Positions 6,868-28,424 of a stretch of 64,000 nt of DNA are shown here, one piece after another. The notes under the pieces were generated by a model. It worked only from the letters and a program-made list of their open reading frames with translations. It had not been told where the DNA came from and made no database searches. Position 1 is the first letter of the stretch, and every line of letters begins with the position of its first letter. The position numbers and the translations under genes are program-made. The stretch lies in the NCBI GenBank assembly GCA_040388455.1, contig JAZKBX010000038.1:80-64079 (forward strand). Reading direction: 5' to 3'. Origin of the DNA: Bacteroidota bacterium. GTDB taxonomy: Bacteria; Bacteroidota; Bacteroidia; 2-12-FULL-35-15.

Positions 6868-6994
6868 AAATTACTTATTTGTGATTAAACTTGTTGTCCT
6901 TATTTTAAGATCAAAAGAATTTATAAATTATTGAACTAACACACGTCAGAGTTAATTTGAATTTATTAAATAGTTTTCAATTTCTACACACTGT

Positions 6995-7046
6995 CTCGAC
7001 TCCGCTAGAAACGGCATCGAGCGTTGTCATTTCGAGCGGAGTCGAG
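6995..7046. repeat. Palindromic intergenic element
   Basis: Perfect 12-bp inverted repeat ctcgactccgct (6995-7006) / agcggagtcgag (7035-7046), with an internal tcgagcg duplication. It resembles the REP-like 'gtcatttcgagcggagtcgag' elements seen in Bacteroidota intergenic DNA. Confidence 0.6.
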
Positions 7047-7253
7047 AGCAATTATTTAACACATTGATTAACAGTGTTTTATTAGCTTTAAAGTTTTTTA
7101 GTTGAAACCTGGTTAAAGCATTTTCTTTAAAGTATAAACGCATATATAACTTTAAAAAGCTATTCGAAAATCGAAGATAATCATAGTAAATAAACATTGC
7201 CAATTTTTTTCTTCTTTAAGTATCTTCTAAAGGTTAACTCCAAACTAAAATTT

Positions 7254-7640
7254 TCAGAGCTGATAAAAGCATTTGGATTTTTTAGAATTGCAAATTGTTT
7301 TACGATTCAATTTTTTTAGTTTGGTTCGTAGTGTCAAGTTCATCCGATCAATATAATTTATTTTGTGCGCCTGCATTTTATGAATACTCTTCGGAATGAG
7401 ATGATTGTAGATATTTAACCCATTGCTATAAATAGCTTTAGGATGCTAAAGAAGGAAGGTGTCTGTCACTTTTTTTTAGTGTTGCTTTTGTTAGGCTATC
7501 TACTGCGATATCTATTACTTGTTTTGTTTTTTGTTAATCGCATAAACTACCCACTTCGTGTTTTTATTGATTGATTGGTGAGTGCATGGGACATTTTTAT
7601 AATCCAAAACAAGTAGGAATCATTTTTGAAAAGCTTGGTC
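7254..7640 (-). mobile_element. Decayed IS1-family transposase fragment
   Basis: Minus-strand 7439-7254 reads KAIYSNGLNIYNHLIPKSIHKMQAHKINYIDRMNLTLRTKLKKLNRKTICNSKKSK..., matching the IS1 InsB C-terminal pattern (IER-N-L-LR...RL-RKT-CFSKS). Upstream, shifted frames give ...SINKNTKWVVYAINKKQNK*. There are several stops and frameshifts and no intact ORF. Confidence 0.6.
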
Positions 7641-7690
7641 TTCCGGATATTATTCATTTGAATTAATAATCCTTTTTTGAATGGATTAAA

Positions 7691-8878
7691 TTAAACTGCA
7701 AAATCATCCATTGTTATATCGTTCAGATTCTTAACGATCAGTTTTGCATTTAGCTTACTTTGCAATTCATGAACTTTATCGCTGGGATAAAGGTCAATAA
7801 TAAAACACAGTTTCTTTTTAAGATCGAAATTTTCAAATAACATTTTGTTTATTTCGGAATCCTTTCCTCCGTACCCAATTATTATAAGTATTCCAGAATT
7901 TGTTAGGTTTTGTTTAAAAAGTTCAAAGAGCTTTTTATAAAGCAATGGTTCATTATATCTTTCGATTTTGGAAGTGGTTCCGGTAAGAAAATCACCATGA
8001 TAATTTACCCAATCTCTCTCGTAGGTGAGTTTATCATTAATTAGTTTTTCTTTATAGAATTCGGAAAAACCAATACCCCATCGTGTTTTTATATAATTCT
8101 CAGGAGTCATAACTGCACCTTCCGAACCATGATAAACCCCATAGTCTCTGCTGCCATGAAGTTTATATAATCTTATGTTGCTATCATAATTTCCAGTGTA
8201 ATATTCCATTCTACACTTATAACTCCGACCTTGGGTTTTTAGTTCTCCGTAATAAGGTGATCCAATTTCTTGGAAGCCATCGCTCAATTGTCCTTCAAAA
8301 AAATCAGTATGATTTAACCTCTCGAGAAAAAGATCGTGATTTAATGTATGAATATTTAGAATATTGTTTTTTGAAAATTCTTTAATAGATTTCAATAATC
8401 CAGTATAGCCATAATATGATTCCCCAATTATGTAAGCCTGATCATCATAGTATTTAAGACCTTCATTATCTTTTAAATAAAACCCTAATAGCTGATTAAG
8501 AATGTTCTTTAACCCAAAAAGAAGATCAGAAACGGAATTAAAATGAGTTCCAATATATTTTTTTGCGATTTCTTCTACTCCGGAATCCTTACTCGCCTCA
8601 CCTTGAATAAAATCATAAAATTCTTCGTAATCAAAGTGCCCGAATTTTAAATTGAAATATTGGAACAGTTCTTTGCAGAATTCAAAGTTGTAATCATAAC
8701 TTGTCTTATAAGGTTTCTCTCCCTTAGTAACAACTGCAAGTCCACCCATTGAATGAAATACAAATTCTTCTCCCGTACATTTTAAAAGCAAATTATTCAA
8801 TGTGCTACCAACCGGATAACCCTGATTTGCCGAAAATCCCGCCCCAAGTAAAAATGATATAGACTTTTCATTTTTCAT
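7691..8878 (-). CDS. SIR2-family (SIR2_2-like) protein, putative NADase effector
   Basis: 395 aa. Contains GAGFS near the N-terminus, HTLNHD, the catalytic-His context LYKLHGS, and IIGYGGKD. It starts 4 nt after the HNH gene stop. Confidence 0.75.
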   Translation of the reverse strand: MKNEKSISFLLGAGFSANQGYPVGSTLNNLLLKCTGEEFVFHSMGGLAVVTKGEKPYKTSYDYNFEFCKELFQYFNLKFGHFDYEEFYDFIQGEASKDSGVEEIAKKYIGTHFNSVSDLLFGLKNILNQLLGFYLKDNEGLKYYDDQAYIIGESYYGYTGLLKSIKEFSKNNILNIHTLNHDLFLERLNHTDFFEGQLSDGFQEIGSPYYGELKTQGRSYKCRMEYYTGNYDSNIRLYKLHGSRDYGVYHGSEGAVMTPENYIKTRWGIGFSEFYKEKLINDKLTYERDWVNYHGDFLTGTTSKIERYNEPLLYKKLFELFKQNLTNSGILIIIGYGGKDSEINKMLFENFDLKKKLCFIIDLYPSDKVHELQSKLNAKLIVKNLNDITMDDFAV

Positions 8879-8882
8879 TAGA

Positions 8883-9845
8883 TCAAGAAATTTTCTTTAA
8901 AGTAATTGGCATCGTAAAAACAAGTTGTTCCACAATATCCTTCGTCAATTTTGATAGAGGTCTTTTTTCAAAATCATCTTCATTATGATAATTTCCAAAT
9001 GCTACATTATATAATTCATCAATCGATCCAAGTTTAGGGAAAGCACTATGCAATATTTCAAGATATTTTCCATTTGAAACATTATGCCTTTTAATAATAT
9101 CTGCTATTTCTCCCCCATGACTCTCTTCATAAATTTCTTTTAATTTAAAAAGTTTAAAACTACTTAAGCACCTCTTTGACTTTTCAGGCTCTATCGGATT
9201 TGTTTGTAAAGTGATAGTATAATTTTTTTTTAGACCAACTGAGCTATCCATATCCATTGGAAAATAATTAATTTTTAAAGTGTTTCCAAAACCTTCTTCA
9301 TATGGATGTATGTATTTTCCATGTACAATTTTAGCTTGATTTTTAATTGTTCGATTGCAAATTAAGCAACTTGGGACAAGATTATAAAAGGAAAGGGCTA
9401 ACAATGGGTATTGCTTATGAGGAAAAAAATGATCAAAATCTGGTCGAACAGTTCTGCTCATCCCTTCTGAAACTGTAACGGTATAGTTTCTATTGCAATA
9501 TGGACAAGTTTTAAAATTTATTTTTTTGGCAAGGTCATAGCCGCAATAATGGGTGGCATTTTTTTTCGTAAACCATTTATAATTGAAAGCACTACTTAGA
9601 CCAGTATTATAGTGCTTTAATGATGCTTTACCAGGAGCTTTGCAAAATTGAATGTAATCTTTATGGAGAGTAAACAGAGCACTCGGTTTCGAAGTAAGAA
9701 TTTTTTCAATATTATCTTCTATAAATTCTCTTTGTCTTACTTTAAGGTTTGCAGTTTTAGCTAATATAGAAGCTTGCAATGAGTCATAATGCTCTTTACA
9801 AATATTATCAAGGTTTCTTAATAATGTTGACTTAATTTGTATCAT
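8883..9845 (-). CDS. ptuB: HNH endonuclease, Septu PtuB-like
   Basis: 320 aa. Motif CPYCNRNY...RPDFDHFFPHKQYP...YNLVPSCLICNRTIKN (HNH / TIGR02646-like pattern). Its start overlaps the upstream ATPase stop (TAATG). Confidence 0.7.
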   Translation of the reverse strand: MIQIKSTLLRNLDNICKEHYDSLQASILAKTANLKVRQREFIEDNIEKILTSKPSALFTLHKDYIQFCKAPGKASLKHYNTGLSSAFNYKWFTKKNATHYCGYDLAKKINFKTCPYCNRNYTVTVSEGMSRTVRPDFDHFFPHKQYPLLALSFYNLVPSCLICNRTIKNQAKIVHGKYIHPYEEGFGNTLKINYFPMDMDSSVGLKKNYTITLQTNPIEPEKSKRCLSSFKLFKLKEIYEESHGGEIADIIKRHNVSNGKYLEILHSAFPKLGSIDELYNVAFGNYHNEDDFEKRPLSKLTKDIVEQLVFTMPITLKKIS

Positions 9846-11767
9846 TATTTTTGAATTTCTTTAAGTCTCTGAGTGATATATTCCTGTTGTGCTTTAAGCC
9901 TTGTAAGTTCGACGTTTTCTCCCAATCTTTCAGCAAGCATTTCCAATAATTTTGTTTTAATTATAGGTTCGCCAATAATATTAATAAGTTGTCTTATGGA
10001 CTCAGGATTTCGGAGTGCTTTTTTATTTTGCAATATTGTTATTACATCATTTATTTTATTCTTAGCAAATTCTCCAATTAAAGCGTCAGTAAGATAAAAA
10101 GAATCGGCATACAGCTCATGGATGTTATTTCCAAATGTTTCTTTTTGCGTTTCGGAATTTGCAACTTCACAGCCTCCGTTCACATTCTTCTTTAAGAAAA
10201 TTAAATTTTGCTTCGGTAAATCAGAAGCAATAAAAGGAGAATGTGTTGAAATAATAATTTGCACTTTGTTCCTTGGAAAGAGAAATTTAACATACGTAAT
10301 CAAATTATTAAAATATTCTTTCTGCCATTGCGGATGAAAATACAAATCGCCTTCATCAACTAGAAGCCAAATTGTTTTATGATAAAGATCCTCCTTTACT
10401 TCATTCAATCGGGCAAAATGAGACAAAAAGGCTTCTTCTCCTGTACTTATCCCAGTACCCCATGAGTAATCAATAAAAGTAGAATACATAACATACTTTA
10501 AATCATGAATTAGATTCAGGACAGTCCATAAATTATTGTCTGCTTTCAAGCGATAATGTGTTTTGTCATCAGAAACCATTTCCGTATCGCTAAACTGTAT
10601 TTTTTGAACTGAGTCTGTAAATTTTTTACCCAGAAACTCATTTATTGTTTTTGCATTTTGGTTTGAGCCATCAGTAATTTTCAAAGGAGAAAGAAGTTCT
10701 CTAATATTACCGAATAGGGTTTTCGGATTCTTGAGTAAGTTATCTATACCTATTTTTACATCATCCATTGAAACCCTGCTTGGCTGAAATAAATCCCACC
10801 GTAAAGCATAATAAAAAGAACAAAGAACAACAATGTTTAAAAAATTATTTCTCTTATCGTTCGACTTAGAAATGAGCTGTACTGCTAATTCTTGTATCTT
10901 AACAATTGCTTCCTTTTTGTACAAAAATGAATTTTCATTAATTAAATATTCATAGTCTTCAAAATTAAACTGTACAATAAGTGATGTAGGTAAATCAGGT
11001 AACTTGCCAGTTTTTCTTGCATTTGCGTAGGAAATGAACTTTAAAAGAGTTCTTTGTTCTGATTTATGGTATTCAGCAATATGAGATGGATAAAGTACTA
11101 ATTTAGGTATCTCTTTTTTCTTCGTTTTTTTTGCTTCTTTTTCAATTTTTTCGATATATTTTTTAAAGAAGGTCTCAACACGATAGTTAGTTGAAACATT
11201 GTGAATTTTCGAATATATCTGTTCAGGATGGCTATCAAAAGCGTTTGAGAAAAAGCAACAAGCTATATCTTCAAATTCAAAATCTAAACCTTTAATTCCA
11301 CTTCCATTATTGAATTGCATTCTCGAAATTGAGTAGGGCTTTGGTTTAGTAATCTTAAATTTATCCCTAACCTCCTTGGTGGTATCTAACGATATTGATA
11401 AAGAACTCATTTCCTCAACACCGCCTTCTTTATAATAATAAGTTTTAATTGTTTTGGATTCTCGATCCAATAATGCAAATATTAAAGGACTGGTTAGAGT
11501 AGATAATTTACCGCACATCATTTTTAGACAATGCAAAAGGCTGGATTTTCCCGATCCGTTTTTTCCGATAACCCCAGTAACATTAATAATATTGCTATCG
11601 AATAGATTTACATAATTTGCATTGTAGTCTATTTTTATTTTATAAACTATCTCCTTGGTGCTTTTTTCTGATATTGGTGTAGTAGTAAAAACTAATTCAG
11701 GATTAAAGTTAAACCCCTGTTTTCGGATGTTTCTAAAATCTTCTATCCATAAATATAATAATTCCAT
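9845..11767 (-). CDS. ptuA: ABC/AAA_15-21-type ATPase, Septu PtuA-like
   Basis: 640 aa. Walker A GVIGKNGSGKSS, Walker B WLLVDEGDLYFHP and a STHSP motif. It lies directly upstream of the HNH partner. Confidence 0.7.
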   Translation of the reverse strand: MELLYLWIEDFRNIRKQGFNFNPELVFTTTPISEKSTKEIVYKIKIDYNANYVNLFDSNIINVTGVIGKNGSGKSSLLHCLKMMCGKLSTLTSPLIFALLDRESKTIKTYYYKEGGVEEMSSLSISLDTTKEVRDKFKITKPKPYSISRMQFNNGSGIKGLDFEFEDIACCFFSNAFDSHPEQIYSKIHNVSTNYRVETFFKKYIEKIEKEAKKTKKKEIPKLVLYPSHIAEYHKSEQRTLLKFISYANARKTGKLPDLPTSLIVQFNFEDYEYLINENSFLYKKEAIVKIQELAVQLISKSNDKRNNFLNIVVLCSFYYALRWDLFQPSRVSMDDVKIGIDNLLKNPKTLFGNIRELLSPLKITDGSNQNAKTINEFLGKKFTDSVQKIQFSDTEMVSDDKTHYRLKADNNLWTVLNLIHDLKYVMYSTFIDYSWGTGISTGEEAFLSHFARLNEVKEDLYHKTIWLLVDEGDLYFHPQWQKEYFNNLITYVKFLFPRNKVQIIISTHSPFIASDLPKQNLIFLKKNVNGGCEVANSETQKETFGNNIHELYADSFYLTDALIGEFAKNKINDVITILQNKKALRNPESIRQLINIIGEPIIKTKLLEMLAERLGENVELTRLKAQQEYITQRLKEIQK

Positions 11768-11802
11768 TTTTATACTTTTAGTGTGTTTATTTATCGTTAG
11801 TC

Positions 11803-12768
11803 TTATCCCTTTTCCGCTTGTTGAATCGATTTAATCATTTCAATTAAATCGTTTGATTCTTCTACAACCCAAAGATTATTCTTTATTAAATTCCTTATGA
11901 GAAGTCGTTGCGGTTCCGAAAATAAATCTGATTGTAATCCGGATAAATAATTTGCGTCCTCACGTTTTTTCCATAAGCTTTTATGTTCTGTTTTTTCAAT
12001 TTCACGAGGGATTCCGTTTGGAAGTAAAAGAACTATTTCCGGAATTTTTTCTTTTACAGCACGAAAAATATCAAGCCCATCATAATCCCAATCACAACAA
12101 TAATATATTGGCATTCCGCCATGATTCGAATATCTTAATTTTTCAATATTTCTTCCACCTGCATACCATAACTCAATGTCATTTTTTCTTGGTTTACCGG
12201 GCATTTTTAAAAAATGCAGGTTTTCACAAAGGACAATAGCTTTTGGAGCGTGGCATTGTAAAACATACAAGTATTGAAAATCCCTTTCATCAGTGAAGAT
12301 CTTTACATTCAAAATTTGCTTTACTGCTTTTTCTAACGCCTCGTGGTTGTCCAAATGCTTTTCATGTTTAAAAAACATTAGAGAAACTCCTCTTCGAGTT
12401 TCATTCGACTTAATAATTTGTTCCCGAATTTCACTAAGTAAACCTTCGTTCATTTGTGCTTGCATATCACGAAGTATCAAAATGTCTTCCATTTCGAATT
12501 TGCAGTATGGTGTATTCAATCCCTTTTCTTCTAAAAATGAAAAGCATATAGTAAATTGATCGAGATAATTTTTCTTGAAAGTATTTTCAAAATTCAAACT
12601 GTTCCCTGATCTCGATGGCGAAACAAGAATTTCTTTTTTAGTAACTAAAAGTTCCTTTGTCTGATTAATATGAAACTTAAATACTGGATCACCAACTAAT
12701 GTTGGCCGGAATTTTGTTTTTCCGTTTTTATAAATTTCATGTAGCGATTTGAAAGTTTGCCAATTCAT
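11803..12768 (-). CDS. jetD: Wadjet JetD (DUF2220/Toprim-like)
   Basis: 321 aa. Motifs VLCENLHFL, WYAGGRN and CDWDYDGLDIF (Toprim-like DUF2220 pattern). Last gene of the jetABCD order. Confidence 0.8.
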   Translation of the reverse strand: MNWQTFKSLHEIYKNGKTKFRPTLVGDPVFKFHINQTKELLVTKKEILVSPSRSGNSLNFENTFKKNYLDQFTICFSFLEEKGLNTPYCKFEMEDILILRDMQAQMNEGLLSEIREQIIKSNETRRGVSLMFFKHEKHLDNHEALEKAVKQILNVKIFTDERDFQYLYVLQCHAPKAIVLCENLHFLKMPGKPRKNDIELWYAGGRNIEKLRYSNHGGMPIYYCCDWDYDGLDIFRAVKEKIPEIVLLLPNGIPREIEKTEHKSLWKKREDANYLSGLQSDLFSEPQRLLIRNLIKNNLWVVEESNDLIEMIKSIQQAEKG

Positions 12769-15700
12769 TATTGTTCTTTGGCTTTTAAATATGTTTCCAA
12801 TTCGGTTTTATCAGTAATTGTTCTAAAATAACTCATCACATTAGGATAGTTAATATCGCGATTAATTTTACCCGGCAACAAATGATGTATATACCATCCT
12901 TCATCACCTCCAAGAGCATATGGTTTAGGAGTCATTGTTAAAATTTGATAACCATACTCTTTTGCTATAAGTGGAAAAATCCCAAAATTGGTATTATCTA
13001 AAGTGGCGGATTCTTCAAGAATAAGAAAACGTAATCCTTTTCTGTTCCCATCCTGTACTATCGATAATCGAGCGATTCCTAATAGCGCAATCGCTGTGTA
13101 ACTTTCTCCCGTACTACCCGGAATTTCTTTTCCGTTTTCATCTGTTAACTTACCAGCAAGCAAGAAGTATTTTTTCGGATTGAGTAATTCTTCAATAGAA
13201 ATCTTTGCTTTATTTTTAGAATACTGCGCATAAAAATCACCAATGAAACGTTCCGGAGTTAATTCCGACTCTATGCTCATTGATGTTGTGATACTATTTA
13301 CCGACCGCCTTAATTGCTCTATCCATTTAATATCCAACTTGTGATTTGGAGTGAAATCAATTTTAAAATAAAATCTATCACTTATCAATCTTCCCTTAAA
13401 GAAGTCATTAAGAGATTGAATCAAACTTTTATATCGATCATAATAATGTTCTGTTTTTCCGAAAACTTTTGTTAAACTTGTTAATAGTTCATCGGCAATT
13501 TTTAATAAATCACTATTTAATTCTTCCAGATGGTCGGTTACTTTATCTAAAGTTTTTATTTTTCTTCCTAATAATGCCTCTTCAAGTATCTCAAAGGAAA
13601 ATGTTTTATTAGTTATTTGTTCGTTTATCTGAATAGACCGCTCCTCTCTTGTTTCTTCATAGCGACCAACTATTTGATTGTATTCAATAATATATTGGGT
13701 GGCCGCATCCTGAAATGCTTTATTTAATACAGCTATATCAATAGAGCTAACTTGTGGACTATTTATATCTGGTAATTCAGTGTTTGGGTATTTTTCTTTT
13801 AATGAAAATTCAGATTTTTCAAATTGATTCTTTGATTCATGGACTTCAAGAACAAGTTTTCTCTGATTTTCTTCCAACTGAGGCAAAGTTTCGTTTATAC
13901 CATTTCCTTCTATCTTTTCCAAATTAAATTTCCCTTTAAGATTGAGCGAGCGTGCATTGAACAAATCCTTTTTGCTATTAGTTTGTTCTAATAATGAAAT
14001 AAAATCTAAGTCATCGGAAGAAATTCCATATTCTTTTTTAATTGTATTTACCTCCTCCAAACGCTTTTGGTATTCACTTTTAAGTAAAGCCATTTTTTGA
14101 GCTAACAATCCGGACAACTCAGATGCGGACTTATGCTCTTTAATTTTAGTATAATCAGATAAATCAATATCAAAAGGATATTCATTAAAATTCTCAGATA
14201 TATTTCCCTTTAAAAGATCTTCATATATGATCCTGCTATCAGCGCATTCTTTAATTTTTTTACCAATAGTTACTTTAAGCTGATTCAAATTACTTATCTG
14301 AATTTCTGATAAATCTGGTAGCAATGAAGATTTTTTTGGTATGAACTCATATACTTCTCCCAATTTTAACCACCATCCTCCATTAACTTTGTCCTCTGTG
14401 ATGTTATTTAAATTAAGTAAGTCCCCTGATTCAGTATATCTTGTTCCCTCATTGGACTCATTCGGTATTCCAAAAAACAAGCGTCTTAGATATAATAAAA
14501 CTATCTGTTGAGATTCGACAAGTGAAGCCTTACTTGATAATGCTTTAATAAAAAAGCTGTTTTCCGGAAGCTGATCAAGAGTTCCTTTAAAATGTTTCAG
14601 TTGATTTTCTTTTTCTTCGCACTCTTTAGTTCTTTGTTTAAGCCATTCATCCTGTTCCTTTTTCTTGTCGTCCATCTCCTTAATGCTCTTGTAACGCTTC
14701 AGAACAGGGGACGACTTTGATATTCTTTCTGAAAACACTTGTGCCTGACTCTTTAATAAATCAGAACCTTGGGAAGAATCAGGAGTACATATTAATCCTT
14801 GAACATTAATTTTATCTATAATATCTATTTCGTTTGTTATCGCATCTAAATTGTCAAATTTGTTTTTCCCTTTTACTAATTCACCATACGCATTTGCAGT
14901 GTCTTCAGATTTTTTAGCACTTTTATTAACGATCTCTGAAAACTTTGTATTTCTGGCCAATATAGTTTTTAATCTTTCGCTTTTGTTTTTAATATCGCGT
15001 TCATGTTTTTTAAAAGAGGTTTGTTTTTCAATCTGATCGTAATAATATACAATGTACTCATTGAACAACAATTGAAATTCTGTATCCTTTCTTTGCTTGT
15101 CATATCCTTGCAGAATTAGAAGGTTTTTCTGTTTATTACCTATATTAATAATATTCTCTTTAGTAGATTTGAATTGAAATAATAATTTTTGAACTGCTTG
15201 CTCTTGTTGTTTATATTCTTGTTCTATTTCATTTTCGTTTTCTTCAAATAAATATTCTATCAAACTATTTGAATTGTCAATATCTAAAGACTTAGATTTT
15301 GAAAAGGATTGAATCACCTTTGCAAATGCTTTTAAATTACCTTCCTTTACTAAATTGATTGATATTAATTCGTTCTTATATAGCCAAGCATAAAACGCTT
15401 CTCGTTCGTCTTTGGTACTAAAGTAATGTACATACAATTGAAACTTGTCTTGCATTGCATGAGCTAAGGCATCAAGTGTATATGGTTCTTTATTAGATTT
15501 AATAAAGTGTTTATTAAATAGCAGTTTATTTGAATCAAAAGCGCTTTGTTCAAGGTTGCTGTTATTATAATCCACTGATGCTGTAATAATAAATGGTTTA
15601 ATTGATGTAGCTCCTTGTCCTAATATAGCTGCGCCAACTATTATAAATTTCCCTTCTGAAACTTCAACATTAAAAAAAGAATAGCCAATCCCACTCTGAT

Positions 15701-15926
15701 AAGGCAATGTTTCAATTTTACGTTTCTTTTTATTAATTCCTTCAGTTGCAAATTTGATATGCTTACTATCAGCAATAAAAATGATCTGAAAAAGATCGGC
15801 AATAATTGATTTCCCTACTCCGTTTGAACCTGTAAAATCGGTTCGGAGAGGGTGCATAAGATAGTCCTGATTGTAGTGTTTTAACAGACAAACCGTAGAC
15901 AAAGAATATAGGCGAGGATAATTCAC
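12768..15926 (-). CDS. jetC: Wadjet JetC (SMC-like ATPase)
   Basis: 1052 aa. N-terminal Walker A GSNGVGKS, a long coiled-coil middle and C-terminal Walker B LRFLILEESATLD. Confidence 0.85.
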   Translation of the reverse strand: MNYPRLYSLSTVCLLKHYNQDYLMHPLRTDFTGSNGVGKSIIADLFQIIFIADSKHIKFATEGINKKKRKIETLPYQSGIGYSFFNVEVSEGKFIIVGAAILGQGATSIKPFIITASVDYNNSNLEQSAFDSNKLLFNKHFIKSNKEPYTLDALAHAMQDKFQLYVHYFSTKDEREAFYAWLYKNELISINLVKEGNLKAFAKVIQSFSKSKSLDIDNSNSLIEYLFEENENEIEQEYKQQEQAVQKLLFQFKSTKENIINIGNKQKNLLILQGYDKQRKDTEFQLLFNEYIVYYYDQIEKQTSFKKHERDIKNKSERLKTILARNTKFSEIVNKSAKKSEDTANAYGELVKGKNKFDNLDAITNEIDIIDKINVQGLICTPDSSQGSDLLKSQAQVFSERISKSSPVLKRYKSIKEMDDKKKEQDEWLKQRTKECEEKENQLKHFKGTLDQLPENSFFIKALSSKASLVESQQIVLLYLRRLFFGIPNESNEGTRYTESGDLLNLNNITEDKVNGGWWLKLGEVYEFIPKKSSLLPDLSEIQISNLNQLKVTIGKKIKECADSRIIYEDLLKGNISENFNEYPFDIDLSDYTKIKEHKSASELSGLLAQKMALLKSEYQKRLEEVNTIKKEYGISSDDLDFISLLEQTNSKKDLFNARSLNLKGKFNLEKIEGNGINETLPQLEENQRKLVLEVHESKNQFEKSEFSLKEKYPNTELPDINSPQVSSIDIAVLNKAFQDAATQYIIEYNQIVGRYEETREERSIQINEQITNKTFSFEILEEALLGRKIKTLDKVTDHLEELNSDLLKIADELLTSLTKVFGKTEHYYDRYKSLIQSLNDFFKGRLISDRFYFKIDFTPNHKLDIKWIEQLRRSVNSITTSMSIESELTPERFIGDFYAQYSKNKAKISIEELLNPKKYFLLAGKLTDENGKEIPGSTGESYTAIALLGIARLSIVQDGNRKGLRFLILEESATLDNTNFGIFPLIAKEYGYQILTMTPKPYALGGDEGWYIHHLLPGKINRDINYPNVMSYFRTITDKTELETYLKAKEQ

Positions 15927-16591
15927 TAATCGGTTAATTTAATTTCTTTTAAAAACTCATCTGTATTTTCTAATTCCTTTTGATAAATTTCTATAAAATG
16001 TAAGATGGACGGCAGAACAGTAAAATGGATGCTTTCCTCGGACTCTTCTTTCTCAATTAACCGGATACGATCAAAAAAATTAATCACCACCCGAAATTGT
16101 CTTTTAACATTGTCCCACTCTTTGTCAGAATACTCCGCTCTTGAAGCATTAAAGAATAAATTTTGATAAGCCTCCTTGTGCTCACCATGCTCTATTTCAT
16201 ATTGAATATCATCCCAATGAAATTTTTTATCAAAGCTGAAATAACTGGCATAATAAAGGTTTGCCAATATGAATCCGACTATGGTACTTTCAGCATCTAA
16301 TTCTTGAAATAAAGTTGAATTAGATAATTTACCCTTCCCTGTAATCGGGAATTCAAGATAAAAAAATGAAATTCCATCATAAGTTCTTTGCTGTAGCTCC
16401 AAGCTATATAACTTCCTATAATAATGAGCAAAAGGGTCACGATATAAATCTAAAATGCCAAATAATGTAACATCACTGGAGAGAATATGAACACCTCTCA
16501 ACAACTCAATGTTAAGTTCGGAAAAATGCTGCTGAACCTGCGTGTCTTTCAGGAATTCAAATTCGGCTTGTTCTGAAGTATTACTTTCCAT
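15926..16591 (-). CDS. jetB: Wadjet JetB (DUF4194-like kleisin partner)
   Basis: 221 aa, acidic. Size and position between jetA and jetC fit JetB. It overlaps the jetA 3' end by 43 nt. Confidence 0.7.
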   Translation of the reverse strand: MESNTSEQAEFEFLKDTQVQQHFSELNIELLRGVHILSSDVTLFGILDLYRDPFAHYYRKLYSLELQQRTYDGISFFYLEFPITGKGKLSNSTLFQELDAESTIVGFILANLYYASYFSFDKKFHWDDIQYEIEHGEHKEAYQNLFFNASRAEYSDKEWDNVKRQFRVVINFFDRIRLIEKEESEESIHFTVLPSILHFIEIYQKELENTDEFLKEIKLTD

Positions 16592-17958
16592 GTATGAATT
16601 GTATTATTTTTATCACTTTGTAGCTCTTCTTTAATATTTATTTGAGTAGTTTTTGAAATCGCCCTCATTAGCTCGTACCCAGTTTCAACAACAACCTCAA
16701 TGTTATTTTCGGTTTCCATAATCTCAAACAATCTGGAACTCAAATTAAGTGTACCCGATTCTGAAAGGTCTTTTTGCGCTTTTTCACAGAGTTCATATAT
16801 TAATTTTTGTTGAGCCAATTCTAATTCAAGTTTATTACGTTCTTCTTGTTCATACAACTGATCTGACTCTTGTTCAAACGGTTTTCCTCGTAGTAAAAAT
16901 CCTCGATCCCAATATCTAATTGGTCTGAATCTAAATTTTTGCTGAACTATGTCTTTTGCCGGAAAACCATTGGGAAGCTTTATTCCGTTTTTATCGGAGG
17001 AGCTGTTTTCTAACAAAAAGGATAATATTTTTTTTAGGTTTATTTTGTAATGTGACTGTGCTCTTAAAGATTCTTGAAGTTCTGTGATCTTATAACTGGC
17101 AAAAGTTAGCCGAGCATTAATAAGCGATAACTGTTTATCGACTTTATCAAAGAAAATAAAAACCTCTTCTTTAATATAGCGAGCAGATTCTCTTTCTTTT
17201 TCCAAGTTTGAGTAAGCGATTTGTTCGAAAGTAGTATTAGGATGTTTATAACTATCCGTTTTCTGTATGAAAGTTTCCACAATGGCTCTCAATGAATAAT
17301 AAACGTCTTCTTTTACTCTTAAAGCTTCGTTAATTTGCTTTGCCTTTTCTCCCAAAATGCGAAAATTAAAAGCGAATTTTTCAAGCATTTGAATAGCTGT
17401 TAAATCGTCTGCCTCTAATACTTGATTTAATTCTTTTATAGCTTGGTCAACAGCGATTTTCAATCCCTCTAAATGTCCAATAACAACTTGCCTCGCCGTA
17501 TTTTGAAAACCTAATTTATACCATCTTTGTAAAAGAGAAATATCATTTTCTGCATTCTCTGGTAATTGAAAATATGTTTCAAAGGTTTCTTTTAATGGGA
17601 ATTGTAAATAAGGATTCTTAATGCGGTGCACAATAATTTCAATAATACGTTCTGCATGAGGAGTTAAAACAAATTGATTAAAATTTCCTGGTATGCGTTC
17701 AATGAAAGCTCCCAATAATTTTTTAAACACACGCTCTACCTGAATTTGTGTACCTAAATTTAAAAAAGGGAGTTTTGAACTGTCAAGGATGGATTGCTTG
17801 ATTTCAGAATATTCAAAATTCTCGGTCGATTCGCTTTTACTTATGTATAAGTTATATATTACCAATAATTCAAGCTCATTAGGGAAAAGTTCCTTATACC
17901 CCAGAAACATTTTTTCCGGGCTAATTTTTGAGTTATAATATTGATTTAGCTCATCCAT
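16549..17958 (-). CDS. jetA: Wadjet JetA (DUF3375-like)
   Basis: 469 aa, helical. First gene of a four-gene set whose sizes and order match JetABCD. Confidence 0.7.
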   Translation of the reverse strand: MDELNQYYNSKISPEKMFLGYKELFPNELELLVIYNLYISKSESTENFEYSEIKQSILDSSKLPFLNLGTQIQVERVFKKLLGAFIERIPGNFNQFVLTPHAERIIEIIVHRIKNPYLQFPLKETFETYFQLPENAENDISLLQRWYKLGFQNTARQVVIGHLEGLKIAVDQAIKELNQVLEADDLTAIQMLEKFAFNFRILGEKAKQINEALRVKEDVYYSLRAIVETFIQKTDSYKHPNTTFEQIAYSNLEKERESARYIKEEVFIFFDKVDKQLSLINARLTFASYKITELQESLRAQSHYKINLKKILSFLLENSSSDKNGIKLPNGFPAKDIVQQKFRFRPIRYWDRGFLLRGKPFEQESDQLYEQEERNKLELELAQQKLIYELCEKAQKDLSESGTLNLSSRLFEIMETENNIEVVVETGYELMRAISKTTQINIKEELQSDKNNTIHTWKVILQNKPNLNS

Positions 17959-18019
17959 TAATTTGAATATATCTGAGGCATTAAATGTTTGATGCTATCG
18001 AATCAAAAAACATTAATAT

Positions 18020-18611
18020 CTATTTATTAAATCTTTCGTAAATTTTCTTTGTTAACCAATCTTTAACATCATTTTAAAGTCATTATTCTCCATAATCTTG
18101 TCAAATATTTCTTGGTTGCCATCCATTCGCTCTATTTAGTTTATTGATAAACATATCTTCAAAAGCATATTTGTAATTATCAAGCGGATTGTTCAAGGCT
18201 CGTTTTTTTTTAATCTTCATCCAAGAATAATTCTTCTTCTATTTGGTCAAAGAAAGTTTTTCGGCACTTTTAAAGTCTGTACCGAATTTGTCGTTTAATA
18301 AATTAATAATATTTGAAAGTATGTCTTTTTCGTCTTTATCTTTTTTTATCCCAGCTAATGTTTCAAATCGATTTTCAGTGATTAATATCGATTCTAACTA
18401 CCGATTTCAATCGATTAAAATCGATTGGAGCGATTGGGAACGATTTGTAATCGATTAAAAGTAGTAAAACCATTTCAAATTCGTAAAAAAAAGAACTCAA
18501 AGAGGGGAGCCATACATCTTTTCGTTAGATATTTCCGAAAGAAACTGGAAAGTATTATCGTTCGTGTTTTGTAATCCTTTTAATGATCTTGCGATTAGGT
18601 TTTATACTAGA
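18020..18611 (-). pseudogene. hsdR: Relic of the 3' end of a type I restriction enzyme R subunit (hsdR)
   Basis: The minus strand, read across frameshifts, gives ...KDILSNIINLLNDKFGTDFKSAEKL/FFDQIEEELFLDED*KK..ALNNPLDNYKYAFEDMFINKL..GNQEIFDKIMENNDFKMMLKDWLTKKIYERFNK*. This is the characteristic HsdR C-terminal tail. There are at least 4 stops or frameshifts. The upper boundary is approximate and abuts the gajB stop. Confidence 0.55.
18369..18456. repeat. Phased CGATT/TCGATT motif array
   Basis: CGATT starts at 18369, 18389, 18402, 18412, 18422, 18431, 18441 and 18452. The last six are spaced 9-11 bp apart, and several form ATCGAT palindromes. Confidence 0.7.
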
Positions 18612-20456
18612 CTACTTTTTTGTCATTGTTACTACACCAGATTTTTGAAGTTCATCAAAGAGAACTTTAATATTTCTATAGGTTTGATCTTTCATTCCAA
18701 AACGACCTTCACGTTTTTTACTGAAAGTGAAAATCACCCGTTCCTTTGCTCTAGAAAGAGCAACAAAAAAGGCGCATTTATCTTCGTCCGGTTGCCGCTC
18801 AAAAGACCAAAATGCACCATCTTCCAAGCCGATGAATATAACGGTATGATACTCTAGGCCTTTGCTTTTATGTATCGTCATCACCGGAATCGTATCCTTC
18901 CCAATCAACATATCCAGCGCTAAAGCCATGTCATTTGTAACATGGTAAGTATTTATAAACTCGTCCTGTAGCTCTGTTATAGTAGAATTCAATACTTCAG
19001 TATTTTTATACGCTGGGAAACTGGCCTTGATGCGGTCCTTATCTGCAAAGCCGACAATCTCCGAAATCATATTTTTAATTTCTTCGTCTGTCAGAGAATT
19101 AGCAGCATAATCCTTCCTGATTTTTTTAATGAATTTCGAAAATAATCCTTCCAGCCTTAGCAGTTGTTGGTCTTCTAATTCTGTATGTAAATTGCTCATA
19201 AAAACAAATGCAGCTTGTTTGGCATTACCAGACTTTTTTTCAAATATTGTGTACAAAACATTAATGATAAATACAGATAATTCTTGTGTCAGGATATCTT
19301 GTAACCTGTTTTCATCTCTTGATTTAATACCATTTTTGTTGAAATAATCTATCAAGCTACCTGCATATATTTTCAATTGTTGTTTGACAAGTATGCAAAT
19401 GTCTCTTGGGTTCACATTATCGTTAGTTATCAATTTCTTCACCTCTTGAAATAGTATTTGCATTTCAGCAGTAGGATCTTCAAAAGCCCATACAAAACAT
19501 TCACCTTGGTCTGGTTGCCATTTTGGCGATGGAGTGGCAAAATCTTTTTTTCCTAACAGATGCTCGGTTAAATGGTTTAAGAGAGTTACTAATCTCGGAG
19601 CACACCGAAAGTTCATAGTTAACGGGATTCGCTTTGCATTCGTATCAGCAATAAAATCATCAAATACCGTATTTTGTGCACCCGCCCATAGCATTATACG
19701 TTGCTTGTCATCTCCTACTGCAGTAAAAGCACATCCGCTAGCCAGAAAGCAACTTTTAAACAAGTCATATTGAATTCCGGTTGTGTCTTGAAATTCATCA
19801 AGAAAGACATATTGATATGTTTGCTGTAAATATTGCTTTACCTTGGGATTGCTGTTTATAATGTATTCCGCTAATCGCATTATCATTTTGAAGGAAACTT
19901 TTGAATGTCTTCCACCGATCATTTTATTCCACACTTTATTTCGGATCTGCTCTCCTTTTGCTTCGACAGTATGTGGCAGTTGAGCCGTATGCAAGCTCAT
20001 TATTAAATTTCTATCTGTCGAGTTAAAATAGTCAAGATCCTCTGTCTTGTATAGATCAAGGATAGGTTGATCACTCAATACAACTTCATACTCAGCAACA
20101 ATTTTATATCCATTAGGTAAGGCTTGTTTAAATCGATCCAGCAATTGCTTAGAAAATGAATCAAAGGTTAATGAATCAAATCTACGTGAGAGCTCATCTC
20201 CACAGCGCAACTTTACCCTTTCCTTCAAATTATATGCAGCATCTCTTTTAAAGCTTATTGCCAGAATTTTATAAGGAAATTTACAAGTGTTAGTTTGTAA
20301 TAGAAAGCACGCTTTTTGTGCCAGCAATTCAGTCTTGCCTGCACCTGGTCCGGCTACAACCAAACTGTTCGTTATTTTTGTAGTGACAGCAAGAGCGTTT
20401 TTCTCAAGTATCATTCCATCTGCTGGTGACCAAATTTCTGTTTTAACTCTCTTCAT
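18612..20456 (-). CDS. gajB: Gabija GajB (UvrD/Rep-family helicase)
   Basis: 614 aa. Motifs AGPGAGKTE (Walker A), VFLDEFQDT, MTIHKSKGLEYHTVI and FVALSRAKERV. It follows the OLD-type partner with no gap. Confidence 0.8.
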   Translation of the reverse strand: MKRVKTEIWSPADGMILEKNALAVTTKITNSLVVAGPGAGKTELLAQKACFLLQTNTCKFPYKILAISFKRDAAYNLKERVKLRCGDELSRRFDSLTFDSFSKQLLDRFKQALPNGYKIVAEYEVVLSDQPILDLYKTEDLDYFNSTDRNLIMSLHTAQLPHTVEAKGEQIRNKVWNKMIGGRHSKVSFKMIMRLAEYIINSNPKVKQYLQQTYQYVFLDEFQDTTGIQYDLFKSCFLASGCAFTAVGDDKQRIMLWAGAQNTVFDDFIADTNAKRIPLTMNFRCAPRLVTLLNHLTEHLLGKKDFATPSPKWQPDQGECFVWAFEDPTAEMQILFQEVKKLITNDNVNPRDICILVKQQLKIYAGSLIDYFNKNGIKSRDENRLQDILTQELSVFIINVLYTIFEKKSGNAKQAAFVFMSNLHTELEDQQLLRLEGLFSKFIKKIRKDYAANSLTDEEIKNMISEIVGFADKDRIKASFPAYKNTEVLNSTITELQDEFINTYHVTNDMALALDMLIGKDTIPVMTIHKSKGLEYHTVIFIGLEDGAFWSFERQPDEDKCAFFVALSRAKERVIFTFSKKREGRFGMKDQTYRNIKVLFDELQKSGVVTMTKK

Positions 20457-22460: not shown

Positions 22461-22472
22461 AGACTTTATTTT

Positions 22473-24644: not shown

Positions 24645-24689
24645 AGCATGCTTTTTTACTTACTTAATACTTTCGATTTACAATAAGTT

Positions 24690-27600: not shown

Positions 27601-28424
27601 TTAATTTTGAAGGCACCAAACTGTTCATACCAAGTTTCTTCCTTGCTCAATTCAAACACCGCTTTGTCACTGGCCAATATAATTGTTCCTAATTCCTCTT
27701 TTCTTGCTGCAAAAGCTTCTAGCTCCTCTGGAGTGAGTAAAACAACACCTTGCTTTTGGAAGTTAAAATTTTCTAGCTCCTGTGCTTCCTGTCGATGTTT
27801 TTCGAAAATGCGTTTTGAAATTTCACTATATATCTGTGAACCGGTAAGCTTTTCAAGCAGCGAAGATTTTTCATCCTTACCCGCTTTGAGAAAAGCGGTA
27901 AAATCACCTTGCGCCAATAATACGGAACGGGTAAACTGATCGAAGTTTAATCCAACTAGACGTTCTATCTCCGGCAAGATCTCCGTTTTTGTTCCTGAAT
28001 AAATTACATCCGTATCTATGTTCTTTAAAGAAACATTATATGCCTGTAAAGTACCTTCAGCCTTGTTTCTCGCTCGTCTTATGCTCCATTGCGATCTGTA
28101 ACTCTGTCCGTCTATACCTACAAAATCTACTTCTGCATACCCTTCAGAACTGCCTCTTCTCAATATTCCTCGGATGTCGCCCTGCGTTATAGTTGCATCT
28201 CCAACATCACGAATATCTATACCAGTTTCTTTCGCCTGTGTATACCTCGGAGTTTTGGCATATAAAGCCAAGCATAGAGCATCCAGTATAGTAGACTTAC
28301 CCGCACCCATAGGTCCAGTAATAGCAAAAATCCCTGCTGAACATAAGGGTTCTTGTGTAAAATCAATTTCGGTTTCTCCTTCCAGTGAAGCCATGTTCTT
28401 TATGCGTATTGCCAATATCTTCAT
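24690..28424 (-). CDS. sbcC: SbcC/Rad50-family ATPase
   Basis: 1244 aa. Walker A GPMGAGKST, a very long coiled coil, zinc hook LEPCPVCGS, a signature LSGGESF and Walker B LFIDEGFGSLD. Confidence 0.9.
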   Translation of the reverse strand: MKILAIRIKNMASLEGETEIDFTQEPLCSAGIFAITGPMGAGKSTILDALCLALYAKTPRYTQAKETGIDIRDVGDATITQGDIRGILRRGSSEGYAEVDFVGIDGQSYRSQWSIRRARNKAEGTLQAYNVSLKNIDTDVIYSGTKTEILPEIERLVGLNFDQFTRSVLLAQGDFTAFLKAGKDEKSSLLEKLTGSQIYSEISKRIFEKHRQEAQELENFNFQKQGVVLLTPEELEAFAARKEELGTIILASDKAVFELSKEETWYEQFGAFKIKLEEANASHEQADTIKKNGLDRELKLKQTEVVQSAREFVQGLQTNQNQLNSKTTALKDLVENLVNIQKQKNESDLFLKKAQEDLTVKNKYREDAQPQLNEAKKLDVQVKDREQQVKNAAEELKNANEGFQKQGKQLKEQQQKSIELQTSIDQLNQWKDKNKDRQGIADNHTLILSKLIDAQQLLDFLQSTSVKIQTTTQSIKKKEKEKEHFDKQLFSFQTTQEANLKSYQDKQKEIAAVNIGKLEKDKSTADTLLQEIVQANADWKILYGTMKSFESIKATLAENKKKLNTGKKEQTLAVKQFETAKTKRETSLHSLKVVRLASAENVETLRDQLVELEPCPVCGSKEHPYAIHNPQLNKVLAKLEDDHKQHEINYEKSLQEHSSLNEICNQLQKAIDALTTDLTLKDGEIKEQKENWQQFSMYEDFNSLINEEVTASLQQHLRKQKVLQKKLDEQMLSYKTKKQQLDHQKEEQGELGKQIDIISNAIKDFERSQKSLKEQLAQYQGDQEKTNIALSETQTALSIYFITKSWFENWKTNAGDFVKDIRQFADLWKANTLKLDEGIYQQGILTATLKSSQEQTKLLADEVTKKATAHNGFILQRDDLQKQRMALFNGQEVQTVEEDLQKAIETARGQLDKCKTDIEKLGTTITRFVTQKEETEKDIKVLRQNFIGFKEKIDKWLLAYNAQYTTVLDQNSLDQLLAHTPEWIETERKALREIDNLLIQAQTVLNERKTALEKHQLERLSDRSLEKITELLYETKAILQNATKENTEIGLRLQQDAENLEKTGELLTVIKVKEKIVENWARLNQIIGSADGKKFRQVAQEYTLDVLLDYANMQLDMLSKRYILQRIPQSLGLQVLDQDMGNEVRTVFSLSGGESFLVSLALALGLASLSSTRMKVESLFIDEGFGSLDHNTLNTAMDALERLHNQGRKVGVISHVLEMTERIPVQIKVNKHNNGKSKVEITGV

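What the first reader, a model, noticed from the sequence alone, without database searches (positions are those of the whole stretch)
7691..11767. Septu-like ATPase + HNH pair with a translationally coupled third SIR2 gene
- **Seen in sequence:** the ATPase stop overlaps the HNH start (TAATG at 9845), and the SIR2 gene starts 4 nt after the HNH stop, so this is one operon.
- **Established:** an ABC-type ATPase (GKNGSGKSS / LLVDEGD / STHSP) plus an HNH protein (CPYC...DHFFP...NLVPSCLICN) is the two-gene Septu PtuA/PtuB layout.
- **The extra gene:** it keeps all SIR2 catalytic-context motifs (GAGFS, TLNHD, KLHGS), as in NAD+-depleting effectors such as ThsA, DSR and SIR2-APAZ.
- **Inference:** one ATPase sensor may control both a nuclease and an NADase. 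I do not know this as a named subtype.
Basis: partly seen in the sequence, partly recalled or inferred. Interest (0 to 1): 0.75.

Follow-up and report, generated by a model that had tools for sequence, protein, structure and literature searches.

The report
Septu-like defence pair plus separable SIR2 gene
The three genes are real and tightly packed, but comparison with related genomes shows a known two-gene Septu-like (PDC-M62) defence pair with a separately mobile, uncharacterised SIR2 gene stacked behind it in a defence island, rather than a conserved three-gene system.

Summary
Observation confirmed. On the minus strand lie an ABC-type ATPase (9845-11767), an HNH protein (8883-9845, TAATG overlap) and a SIR2-like protein (7691-8878, 4-nt gap), with every quoted motif present.

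The ATPase and HNH match PADLOC candidate PDC-M62 A/B over their full length. This is a Septu-like pair that DefenseFinder reportedly calls Septu.

The SIR2 belongs to a family of about 950 proteins of ~395 aa, mostly from Bacteroidota, with an invariant Asn180/His241 dyad. Its closest fold is the SIR2 of SIR2-HerA.

- In 44 species-level loci the SIR2 follows an ATPase-HNH pair in none. An M62 pair is nearby in two, in other arrangements. There is no conserved neighbour, and 30 of 42 loci have more than 75 nt upstream.
- The closest ATPase-HNH relatives lack the SIR2 (L052) or carry only a deleted remnant (L051).
- The sister SIR2 (76%) follows a different PDC-M62 pair (ATPase about 26-38% identical).
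- Known independent systems in this island sit only 12-45 nt apart.

Best reading: two autonomous modules that are co-transcribed. A shared ATPase sensor is not excluded (about 0.2).

The parts
9845..11767 (-). ABC/OLD-type ATPase, PDC-M62A (Septu PtuA-like), 640 aa
   Evidence: PADLOC PDC-M62A 7.9e-99 over residues 1-639; PtuA models reach 9e-20 on the C-terminal half only. Pfam AAA_21 and AAA_15 pass their thresholds. The best solved relatives are retron Ec78 PtuA and Septu PtuA 8ee4, both partial. Walker A GKNGSGKS, Walker B LLVDEGD and H-loop STHSP are in the translation.
8883..9845 (-). HNH nuclease partner, PDC-M62B (Septu PtuB-like), 320 aa
   Evidence: PADLOC PDC-M62B 2.2e-67 over residues 16-308; PtuB 1e-9, partial. 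Pfam HNH scores 17.4 bits, below the 21.4 cut-off. The CPYC...DHFFP...NLVPSCLICN motif is in the translation. No sequence match in the PDB.
9843..9847 (-). TAATG stop/start overlap between ATPase and HNH
   Evidence: The same overlap or close abutment of the pair is kept in all relatives examined.
7691..8878 (-). Stand-alone-type SIR2-like protein (395 aa), predicted NADase; separable module
   Evidence: Family of 954 homologues. Asn180 (TLNHD) and His241 (KLHGS) are invariant in 25 sequences. Pfam SIR2_2 scores 22 bits, below the 24.5 cut-off; PADLOC gives only a partial Aga_SIR2 hit at 7e-11. AF2 model pLDDT 83. The best fold matches are the SIR2 of E. coli SIR2-HerA, E 2e-8, TM about 0.5, over the full length. 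Similarity to L045 covers exactly this ORF, 8878-7710.
8879..8882 (-). 4-nt spacer between HNH stop and SIR2 start
   Evidence: In L051 the same junction has ATG changed to ATA and the gene is deleted internally.
11803..17958 (-). Upstream context: divergent Wadjet/Mks-like four-gene operon (469, 221, 1052 and 321 aa). Not part of the pair.
   Evidence: Pfam MksE 2.3e-16, JetD_C 7.6e-5, MukB N-terminal 0.0018; PADLOC JetD 1e-4. The gap to the ATPase is 35 nt. Relatives of the pair sit behind other systems instead: type I RM, Eco57I-like, type III-like.
6868..7690 (.). 823-bp stretch without a long ORF downstream of the SIR2; end of the defence island
   Evidence: The part at 7574-7752 is conserved in L051 beyond the SIR2 deletion.

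Best explanation
Two autonomous defence modules are stacked head-to-tail at the edge of a roughly 22-kb defence island and are probably read from the same transcript.

Module 1 is a PDC-M62 / Septu-like pair. By homology with PtuAB (inferred), the ABC-type ATPase oligomer scaffolds and restrains the HNH nuclease, and releases DNA nicking or cleavage on infection.

Module 2 is a self-contained SIR2 protein from an uncharacterised family found mostly in Bacteroidota. It is inferred to be an autoinhibited NAD+ hydrolase using the Asn180/His241 dyad, which depletes NAD+ and aborts infection when triggered. Its sensing would be intrinsic to the protein or its oligomer, possibly through the family-specific insertions at about residues 60-135 and 205-290.

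The SIR2 ORF has lodged behind the HNH gene without promoter space of its own. Relatives sit in the same way behind or inside type I RM, Eco57I-like, MTase+S and McrBC operons. It therefore borrows transcription from the neighbouring system but does not need that system's proteins.

Shown here: gene identities, module separability, and presence/absence/decay polymorphism. Inferred: enzymatic activities, triggers and co-transcription.
For: 1. SIR2-centred survey.
- In 44 species-representative loci, ATPase and HNH homologues are found near the SIR2 only in L013 (order SIR2, ATPase, HNH, with a 63-nt gap) and L035 (convergent, SIR2 truncated). None has the third-gene layout.
- Clustering of all neighbouring proteins finds no conserved partner. 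The largest non-SIR2 cluster has 5 members in 4 loci.
- 30 of 42 loci have more than 75 nt upstream of the SIR2.
- Contexts include hsdM-hsdS-SIR2-(Lit)-hsdR (L002, L007), trypsin-like protease, GmrSD, a tandem SIR2 paralogue, a PIN protein, a kinase, MTase+S, and McrBC plus a C5-MTase.

2. Pair-centred evidence.
- L051 (ATPase 86%, HNH 88%) is colinear with window 11770-8744, then jumps to 7752-7574. This is an internal SIR2 deletion of about 990 bp, with the start codon lost and an in-frame stop, beside intact ATPase and HNH genes.
- L052 (85% and 86%) is colinear only from the ATPase start to the HNH end and has no SIR2.
- L054/L055 and L065 (55-59%) and four plasmid pairs have no SIR2.

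3. Module shuffling.
- The sister SIR2 in L045 is 76% identical in protein and 72% in DNA, over exactly the ORF. It follows a different PDC-M62 pair: the ATPase is 38% identical over its C-terminal part (26% overall in A2) and the HNH is 35% identical and 408 aa long.
- L045 and L052 share flanks (Eco57I-like gene 93%, radical-SAM side 87%) but carry non-homologous cassettes between them.
- L046 and L065 share the Eco57I plus ~130-aa gene context, followed by SIR2 in one and by the ATPase-HNH pair in the other.

4. Internal control. In this window the Old-like gene and gajA are 12 nt apart, other distinct systems are 35-45 nt apart, and Gabija is matched at 3.6e-245 and 5e-225. Tight spacing is therefore the norm in this island.

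5. No triad-specific features. The SIR2 has the family's usual length, and the window ATPase and HNH have the same lengths as in the SIR2-less L052.
Against: - The SIR2 is the third gene, with a 4-5 nt gap, behind two deeply diverged PDC-M62 pairs (window and L045). M62 pairs are also adjacent in L013 and L035. That is four juxtapositions in roughly 50 independent loci, possibly more than chance even within defence islands. I could not compute a proper background rate.
- The closest solved relatives (the SIR2 of SIR2-HerA) are inactive alone and need a partner ATPase (PMC11514289). The 395-aa protein has no recognisable separate sensor domain, so partner dependence is mechanistically plausible.
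- PtuAB is known to be co-opted by third components, namely retrons (PMC12819146).
- No experiment of any kind bears on this locus.
Confidence: 0.65

Rival explanations
1. A true three-gene Septu variant. The PtuA-like ATPase complex senses infection and licenses both the HNH nuclease and the SIR2 NADase, at least in the small clade made up of the window and L045.
For: - Same-strand third-gene layout with a 4-5 nt gap behind two diverged PDC-M62 pairs.
- M62 pairs also lie next to the SIR2 in L013 and L035.
- The SIR2 of SIR2-HerA needs an ATPase partner for activation.
- Retrons set a precedent for a third component on PtuAB.
- The block of M62a, SIR2 and about 180 bp downstream is shared between the window and L051 behind different upstream systems.
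Against: - 42 of 44 species-level SIR2 loci have no such pair, and most appear to be separate transcription units.
- The nearest pair relatives have lost or never had the SIR2 yet keep intact ATPase and HNH genes.
- Neither the ATPase nor the SIR2 has acquired extra elements relative to unlinked relatives, unlike retron-associated PtuA.
- The adjacency in L045, L035, L046 and L065 is explained by a shared insertion hotspot downstream of an Eco57I-like gene.
Confidence: 0.2
2. A plug-in guard effector, analogous to PrrC. This SIR2 family docks onto whichever DNA-targeting defence complex it is co-transcribed with (type I RM, Eco57I-like, McrBC, PDC-M62) and fires NAD+ depletion when that complex is engaged or inhibited by phage.
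For: - The family is repeatedly placed inside or at the 3' end of restriction-type operons, with overlapping or near-zero gaps: L002 at -8 after hsdS, L007, L046, L045 and the window. In L062 and L066 it follows such operons after 156- and 63-nt gaps.
- There is no separate sensor domain.
- The nearest structural relatives are partner-activated.
Against: - The hosts are structurally unrelated, so a common docking surface is hard to envisage.
- 30 of 42 loci have more than 75 nt upstream, and many have no defence neighbour identified.
- Defence islands generate such adjacency by themselves.
Confidence: 0.1
3. The SIR2-like gene is not a defence gene. It would be a housekeeping sirtuin-type deacylase or ADP-ribosyltransferase that happens to lie here.
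For: The Pfam SIR2_2 score is below threshold and no PADLOC, NCBIfam or PDB sequence match is strong.
Against: - There is no Cys4 zinc module: only four scattered Cys and no CxxC (translation).
- Canonical sirtuins are much weaker fold matches (E about 2e-3 or worse) than SIR2-HerA SIR2 at 2e-8.
- Distribution is patchy, contexts are variable and rich in defence genes, and pseudogenes occur in sister lineages.
Confidence: 0.03

Closest known systems
PADLOC candidate system PDC-M62 (A+B), which DefenseFinder largely calls Septu
   Same: The ATPase and HNH proteins match the PDC-M62A and PDC-M62B models over their full length (7.9e-99 and 2.2e-67). They have the same two-gene order with a start/stop overlap. 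PDC-M62 calls coincide with Septu calls in the B. cereus group.
   Different: PDC-M62 is an unpublished, untested candidate with two genes. No third gene is part of the model.
Septu PtuA/PtuB (for example PDB 8EE4 and 8EE7) and retron type I-A PtuAB (Ec78)
   Same: An ABC/OLD-type ATPase followed by an HNH nuclease. PtuA and PtuB HMMs and PDB sequences match the conserved cores. This gives the likely mechanism of ATPase-scaffolded, ATP-restrained DNA nicking.
   Different: The ATPase is 640 aa, against 465-550 aa for PtuA, and only its C-terminal ATPase half aligns. NCBIfam PtuA scores 45 bits against a cut-off of 500. The HNH protein has no detectable PDB sequence match. There is no retron.
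SIR2 of SIR2-HerA (Nezha), PDB 8SUW, 8SUB, 8SXX, 8YHX
   Same: Best structural match over the whole ~395-400 aa protein (E 2e-8, TM about 0.5). The Asn/His dyad aligns (TnYDlf and HGS). This points to NAD+ hydrolysis as the predicted chemistry.
   Different: Only 15-19% identical. There is no HerA gene in the window, and no conserved partner of any kind in 44 loci. The oligomeric state is unknown.
Effector genes embedded in restriction operons (PrrC in EcoprrI; SIR2/HerA between or after R/M systems in S. thermophilus)
   Same: Relatives of this SIR2 sit between hsdS and hsdR or at the 3' end of restriction-type operons. SIR2/HerA is reported between or downstream of R/M systems (PMC11514479).
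   Different: No functional dependence on the host operon has been shown for this family. The PrrC analogy rests on my own knowledge and is not tested here.

Membership tests
PDC-M62 (PADLOC candidate) | Adjacent genes matching the PDC-M62A and PDC-M62B HMMs | tested here: met
   7.9e-99 (residues 1-639) and 2.2e-67 (residues 16-308); the genes overlap by 1 nt.
Septu (PtuA/PtuB) | ABC/OLD-type ATPase with Walker A, Walker B and H-loop, matching PtuA profiles | tested here: inconclusive
   The motifs are present. PADLOC PtuA models reach 9e-20 but cover only residues ~450-615. PDB PtuA 8ee4 gives 1e-5, partial. The NCBIfam PtuA equivalog scores 45 bits against a cut-off of 500.
Septu (PtuA/PtuB) | HNH nuclease partner encoded immediately downstream, matching PtuB | tested here: inconclusive
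   The CPYC...DH...N...CLICN motif is present. PADLOC PtuB gives 1e-9, partial. Pfam HNH scores 17.4 bits, below 21.4. No PDB sequence hit.
Septu (PtuA/PtuB) | PtuA6:PtuB2 assembly through the PtuA C-terminal extension and PtuB C-terminal domain; ATP-inhibited DNA nicking; phage protection | not testable with these tools
   Needs biochemistry or multimer modelling. The features are described.
   No locus among 44 species-level loci has the third-gene layout, and 2 of 44 have a pair nearby in other arrangements. Close pair relatives lack the SIR2 or carry a deletion remnant. Four plasmid pairs have no SIR2. The layout recurs only in L045, with a different pair.
SIR2-HerA (Nezha) | SIR2 NADase with the Asn/His dyad and the SIR2-HerA-type fold | tested here: met
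   Foldseek E 2e-8 to 8suw and 8sub over the full length. Asn180 and His241 are invariant.
SIR2-HerA (Nezha) | Adjacent HerA-type ATPase partner | tested here: not met
   Pfam and PADLOC scans of the six genes at 7691-16591 and PADLOC scans of the genes at 16549-29689 gave no HerA match. No conserved neighbour family exists in 44 loci.
Thoeris ThsA / DSR1-2 / SPARSA SIR2-APAZ | SIR2 fused or paired with a SLOG domain, a large C-terminal sensor, or APAZ-pAgo | tested here: not met
   The whole 395-aa protein is accounted for by one SIR2-type fold. PADLOC gives only a partial Aga_SIR2 hit (7e-11, residues 281-389) and no ThsA or DSR hit at E<=0.01. No pAgo gene is adjacent.
Canonical sirtuin deacylases | Cys4 zinc-binding module and close fold match to Sir2/SIRT enzymes | tested here: not met
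   Four scattered Cys and no CxxC pair (translation). Sirtuins match only at E about 2e-3 or worse, with TM normalised to the query of 0.26-0.35.

The most novel reading that the evidence does not exclude
This ~395-aa SIR2 family is a portable NADase with no sensor of its own. It would be licensed by whichever DNA-targeting defence complex it is co-transcribed with: PDC-M62/Septu-like pairs here and in L045, and type I RM, Eco57I-like or McrBC systems elsewhere. In this locus one ATPase-nuclease machine would then drive both DNA cleavage and NAD+ depletion.
Probability: 0.12. Interest if true: 0.7.

Novelty: new member of a known kind. Interest (0 to 1): 0.3.

Why it matters
If the triad were one system, it would be a new Septu architecture with two effectors under one sensor. 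The comparative evidence makes that unlikely, which saves a wrong annotation.

Three things remain useful:
- A sizeable, uncharacterised SIR2 family (954 database homologues, mostly Bacteroidota) that current PADLOC models match only partially. It behaves like a mobile single-gene defence candidate.
- Natural controls for experiments: the same pair with the SIR2, without it, and with a decayed copy.
- A clear example that near-zero intergenic spacing in Bacteroidota defence islands does not imply functional coupling. Cassettes here are exchanged with breakpoints at ORF boundaries.

Tried and rejected
- The metagenome scan with the ATPase alignment was unproductive. The peptide patterns were too generic and only 5 short loci came back, so the ATPase-centred sample rests on contig look-ups and plasmid records.
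- The sigma-70 promoter and terminator scan gave no more sites than shuffles and does not suit Bacteroidota promoters. It was not used.
- The HNH protein has no PDB sequence match. NCBIfam has nothing for the HNH or SIR2 proteins. There is no SIR2 homologue in the plasmid collection and only one on an IMG/VR contig.
- Literature searches found no description of a Septu or PDC-M62 system with a SIR2 third gene.
- I tested whether a small protein (133, 124 or 127 aa) upstream of some SIR2 genes is a hidden conserved partner. The 133- and 124-aa proteins are homologous, but the latter precedes an ATPase-HNH pair rather than a SIR2, and the 127-aa protein is unrelated. Rejected.
- I considered vertical co-inheritance of the whole triad between the window and L045. 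I rejected it as the simplest account because the SIR2 is 76% identical while the ATPase is about 26-38% identical. SIR2-less pairs at 55-86% ATPase identity also lie much closer to the window's pair.

Full report
**1. Observation**

The region holds three minus-strand ORFs:
- an ATPase at 9845-11767 (640 aa);
- an HNH protein at 8883-9845 (320 aa);
- a SIR2-like protein at 7691-8878 (395 aa).

The ATPase stop and HNH start share one base (TAATG). Four bases separate the HNH stop from the SIR2 ATG.

**2. What the genes are**

*The ATPase-HNH pair*
- The ATPase matches PADLOC PDC-M62A over its whole length (7.9e-99), and the HNH protein matches PDC-M62B (2.2e-67).
- Septu PtuA and PtuB models match only the conserved cores (9e-20 and 1e-9).
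- Pfam gives AAA_21 and AAA_15 for the ATPase. HNH is below threshold.
- The best solved relatives of the ATPase are retron Ec78 PtuA and Septu PtuA 8ee4, both partial.
- NCBIfam's PtuA equivalog is far below its cut-off.
- A published comparison reports that PADLOC PDC-M62 calls coincide with DefenseFinder Septu calls, 203 of 244 in the B. cereus group (PMC11811056).
- The pair is therefore a Septu-like system that already exists as a candidate model.

*The SIR2-like protein*
- It is weakly recognised: Pfam SIR2_2 scores 22 bits against a cut-off of 24.5, and PADLOC Aga_SIR2 gives 7e-11 on residues 281-389 only.
- It belongs to a coherent family of 954 database homologues. Those listed are mostly ~395 aa and, where named, mostly from Bacteroidota.
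- Asn180 (TLNHD) and His241 (KLHGS) are invariant in a 25-sequence alignment.
- An AlphaFold model (pLDDT 83) matches the SIR2 subunit of E. coli SIR2-HerA best (E 2e-8, TM about 0.5, full length). Canonical sirtuins match far less well.
- The protein has no CxxC zinc module.
- In S. aureus SIR2-HerA the equivalent Asn226/His287 dyad performs NAD+ hydrolysis, and the SIR2 alone is inactive until HerA binds (PMC11514289).

**3. Is the SIR2 linked to ATPase-HNH pairs?**

*From the SIR2 side.* A scan of one genome per species returned 44 loci.
- tblastn with the window's ATPase and HNH finds them near the SIR2 only in two loci. Both pairs are PDC-M62.
  - L013 has the order SIR2, ATPase, HNH, with a 63-nt gap.
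  - L035 has a convergent pair next to a truncated SIR2.
- No locus shows the third-gene layout.
- Clustering all neighbouring proteins gives no conserved partner.
- In 30 of 42 loci more than 75 nt precede the SIR2, which suggests it has its own promoter.
- Where the SIR2 is tightly coupled, the neighbours vary. They include:
  - hsdM-hsdS-SIR2-(Lit-like)-hsdR in L002 and L007;
  - trypsin-like proteases in L011, L012 and L016;
  - GmrSD in L018;
  - a second SIR2 paralogue in L024, L027 and L030;
  - a PIN protein in L031 and a kinase in L034.
- Further look-ups add an MTase plus S subunit followed by SIR2 (L062), McrB-McrC-C5 MTase-127 aa-SIR2 (L066), and other contexts without a pair.

*From the pair side.*
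- L051 (ATPase 86%, HNH 88% identical) is colinear with window 11770-8744 and then jumps to 7752-7574. About 990 bp of the SIR2 gene are deleted, the ATG is now ATA, and an in-frame stop follows. The ATPase and HNH genes are intact.
- L052 (85% and 86%) is colinear only from three bases before the ATPase start to near the HNH stop, and has no SIR2.
- L054/L055 (59%) and L065 (55%) have no SIR2. L065 instead has a PDDEXK/REase-ARP gene 13 nt after the HNH gene.
- Four PDC-M62-like pairs on plasmids of Bernardetia, Haliscomenobacter, Hymenobacter and Bacillus cereus are plain two-gene units.

*Module shuffling.*
- The closest SIR2 relative (P0002 in L045, 76% identical) is again the third gene with a 5-nt gap. 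The pair in front of it is a different PDC-M62 lineage:
  - its ATPase is 38% identical over the C-terminal part and 26% overall;
  - its HNH protein is 35% identical and 408 aa long.
- DNA similarity between the window and L045 covers exactly the SIR2 ORF.
- L045 and L052 share flanks (Eco57I-like gene 93%, radical-SAM side 87%) but carry non-homologous cassettes between them.
- The next SIR2 relative (L046, 63%) has Eco57I-like, a 133-aa gene, then SIR2, with no pair. L065 has the homologous Eco57I-like and 124-aa context followed by a pair and no SIR2.
- In a neighbour-joining tree the window and L045 SIR2s are sisters with L046 as outgroup. L013 lies elsewhere.
- The simplest account is a hotspot at the 3' end of restriction-type operons, where the pair and the SIR2 are alternative or stackable cargo.

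**4. Is the tight spacing informative?**

The window's minus strand from 29689 to 7691 is one defence island. In order it carries:
- a 422-aa gene and a 1244-aa SMC/LmuB-like gene;
- an Old-like nuclease;
- Gabija (GajA 3.6e-245, GajB 5e-225);
- a divergent Wadjet/Mks-like operon;
- the PDC-M62 pair and the SIR2.

Gaps between systems known to be autonomous are 12 nt (Old-like to gajA), 45 nt and 35 nt (jetD-like to the ATPase). A 4-nt gap therefore supports co-transcription but not functional dependence.

**5. Mechanism I commit to (confidence about 0.65)**

These are two autonomous modules.
- **The pair.** By homology with PtuAB, an ABC-type ATPase oligomer scaffolds and restrains an HNH nuclease. 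On infection it nicks or cleaves DNA, with ATP acting as an inhibitor in stand-alone Septu (as summarised).
- **The SIR2.** It is an autoinhibited NADase using Asn180/His241. When triggered it depletes NAD+ and aborts infection. The sensor is presumably within the protein or its oligomer.
- **Expression.** The SIR2 is probably expressed by read-through from the upstream operon.
- The enzymatic steps and triggers are inferred. Separability is shown.

**6. Rivals**

- **A real triad in the window/L045 clade (about 0.2).**
  - For: the repeated third-gene layout behind two diverged pairs, the partner dependence of SIR2-HerA SIR2, and the retron precedent for co-opting PtuAB.
  - Against: sections 3 and 4, and the lack of any triad-specific elements in the ATPase or the SIR2.
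- **A general guard effector for restriction-type systems, like PrrC (about 0.1).** The recurrent restriction-type contexts are suggestive, but the hosts are structurally unrelated and most loci look independent.
- **A housekeeping sirtuin (about 0.03).** This is contradicted by the fold, the missing zinc module and the patchy, defence-rich contexts.

**7. Novelty and score**

- The pair is an existing PADLOC candidate and a Septu-like system.
- The SIR2 is a new, untested member of the defence SIR2/NADase kind, with no adequate model in PADLOC v2.
- The proposed three-gene subtype is not supported as a conserved system.
- Interest is 0.3. The value lies in the uncharacterised SIR2 family, in the natural with/without/decayed controls, and in the caution about reading function from spacing.

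Noticed in passing
window 18612-22460 (-): A complete Gabija system: GajA at 20457-22460 (PADLOC 3.6e-245) directly abutting GajB at 18612-20456 (5e-225).
   Followed up: partly
window 22473-29689 (-): An Old-like nuclease (723 aa, PADLOC Old 2.4e-97) lies 12 nt upstream of gajA. Before it is a 1244-aa SMC/LmuB-like protein with a MAD3-like C-terminus, overlapping a 422-aa gene. This may be a further, unclassified two-gene system.
   Followed up: partly
window 11803-17958 (-): A four-gene operon with Wadjet/Mks architecture (469, 221, 1052 and 321 aa). It is so divergent that PADLOC detects only JetD (1e-4). Pfam gives MksE 2.3e-16, JetD_C 7.6e-5 and MukB N-terminal 0.0018, and NCBIfam gives nothing.
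   Followed up: partly
window 7571-7666 (+); L051 about 10090-10260: A 31-aa ORF ending ...NPKQVGIIFEKLGLPDIIHLN converges on the SIR2 stop. The sequence is conserved in L051 beyond the SIR2 deletion. It looks like the remnant of a small helix-turn-helix gene; family not tested.
   Followed up: no
window 11768-11770; L051 6998-7000; L052 4151-4153: Homology among the window, L051 and L052 starts three bases before the ATPase ATG, behind three different upstream systems. The upstream genes in L045, L052 and L054 end in a shared ...RLVLEAWE... C-terminus. The ATPase also weakly matches TIGR04435, 'restriction system-associated AAA ATPase'. PDC-M62 pairs appear to be exchanged as promoter-less ORF cassettes behind restriction-type genes.
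   Followed up: partly
L024, L027, L030 (about 8000-10500); L025 (about 8000-9800): In Bacteroides and Phocaeicola species the SIR2 is followed after 16 nt by a second gene in the same cluster. It is 428 aa in L024, L027 and L030 and 197 aa in L025. The L024 copy was scanned and is SIR2-like (Pfam SIR2_2 4.4e-7), suggesting a tandem SIR2 pair.
   Followed up: partly
L002 5962-11091; L007 4648-14859: The SIR2 is inserted between hsdS and hsdR of a type I RM operon. In L002 a Lit-like peptidase U49 gene (PADLOC Lit 3e-20) sits there as well.
   Followed up: partly
L065 9114-10944: A PDC-M62 pair (ATPase 55% identical to the window's) is followed after 13 nt by a PDDEXK_13/REase-ARP gene and then an FRG-domain gene. 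Other genes can therefore occupy the position after the HNH gene.
   Followed up: no
L061 6001-7170 (IMG/VR contig IMGVR_UViG_3300029054_000283): The single viral-collection hit is a SIR2-family homologue (45% identical) on a 41.5-kb predicted viral contig. Its neighbourhood was not examined.
   Followed up: no
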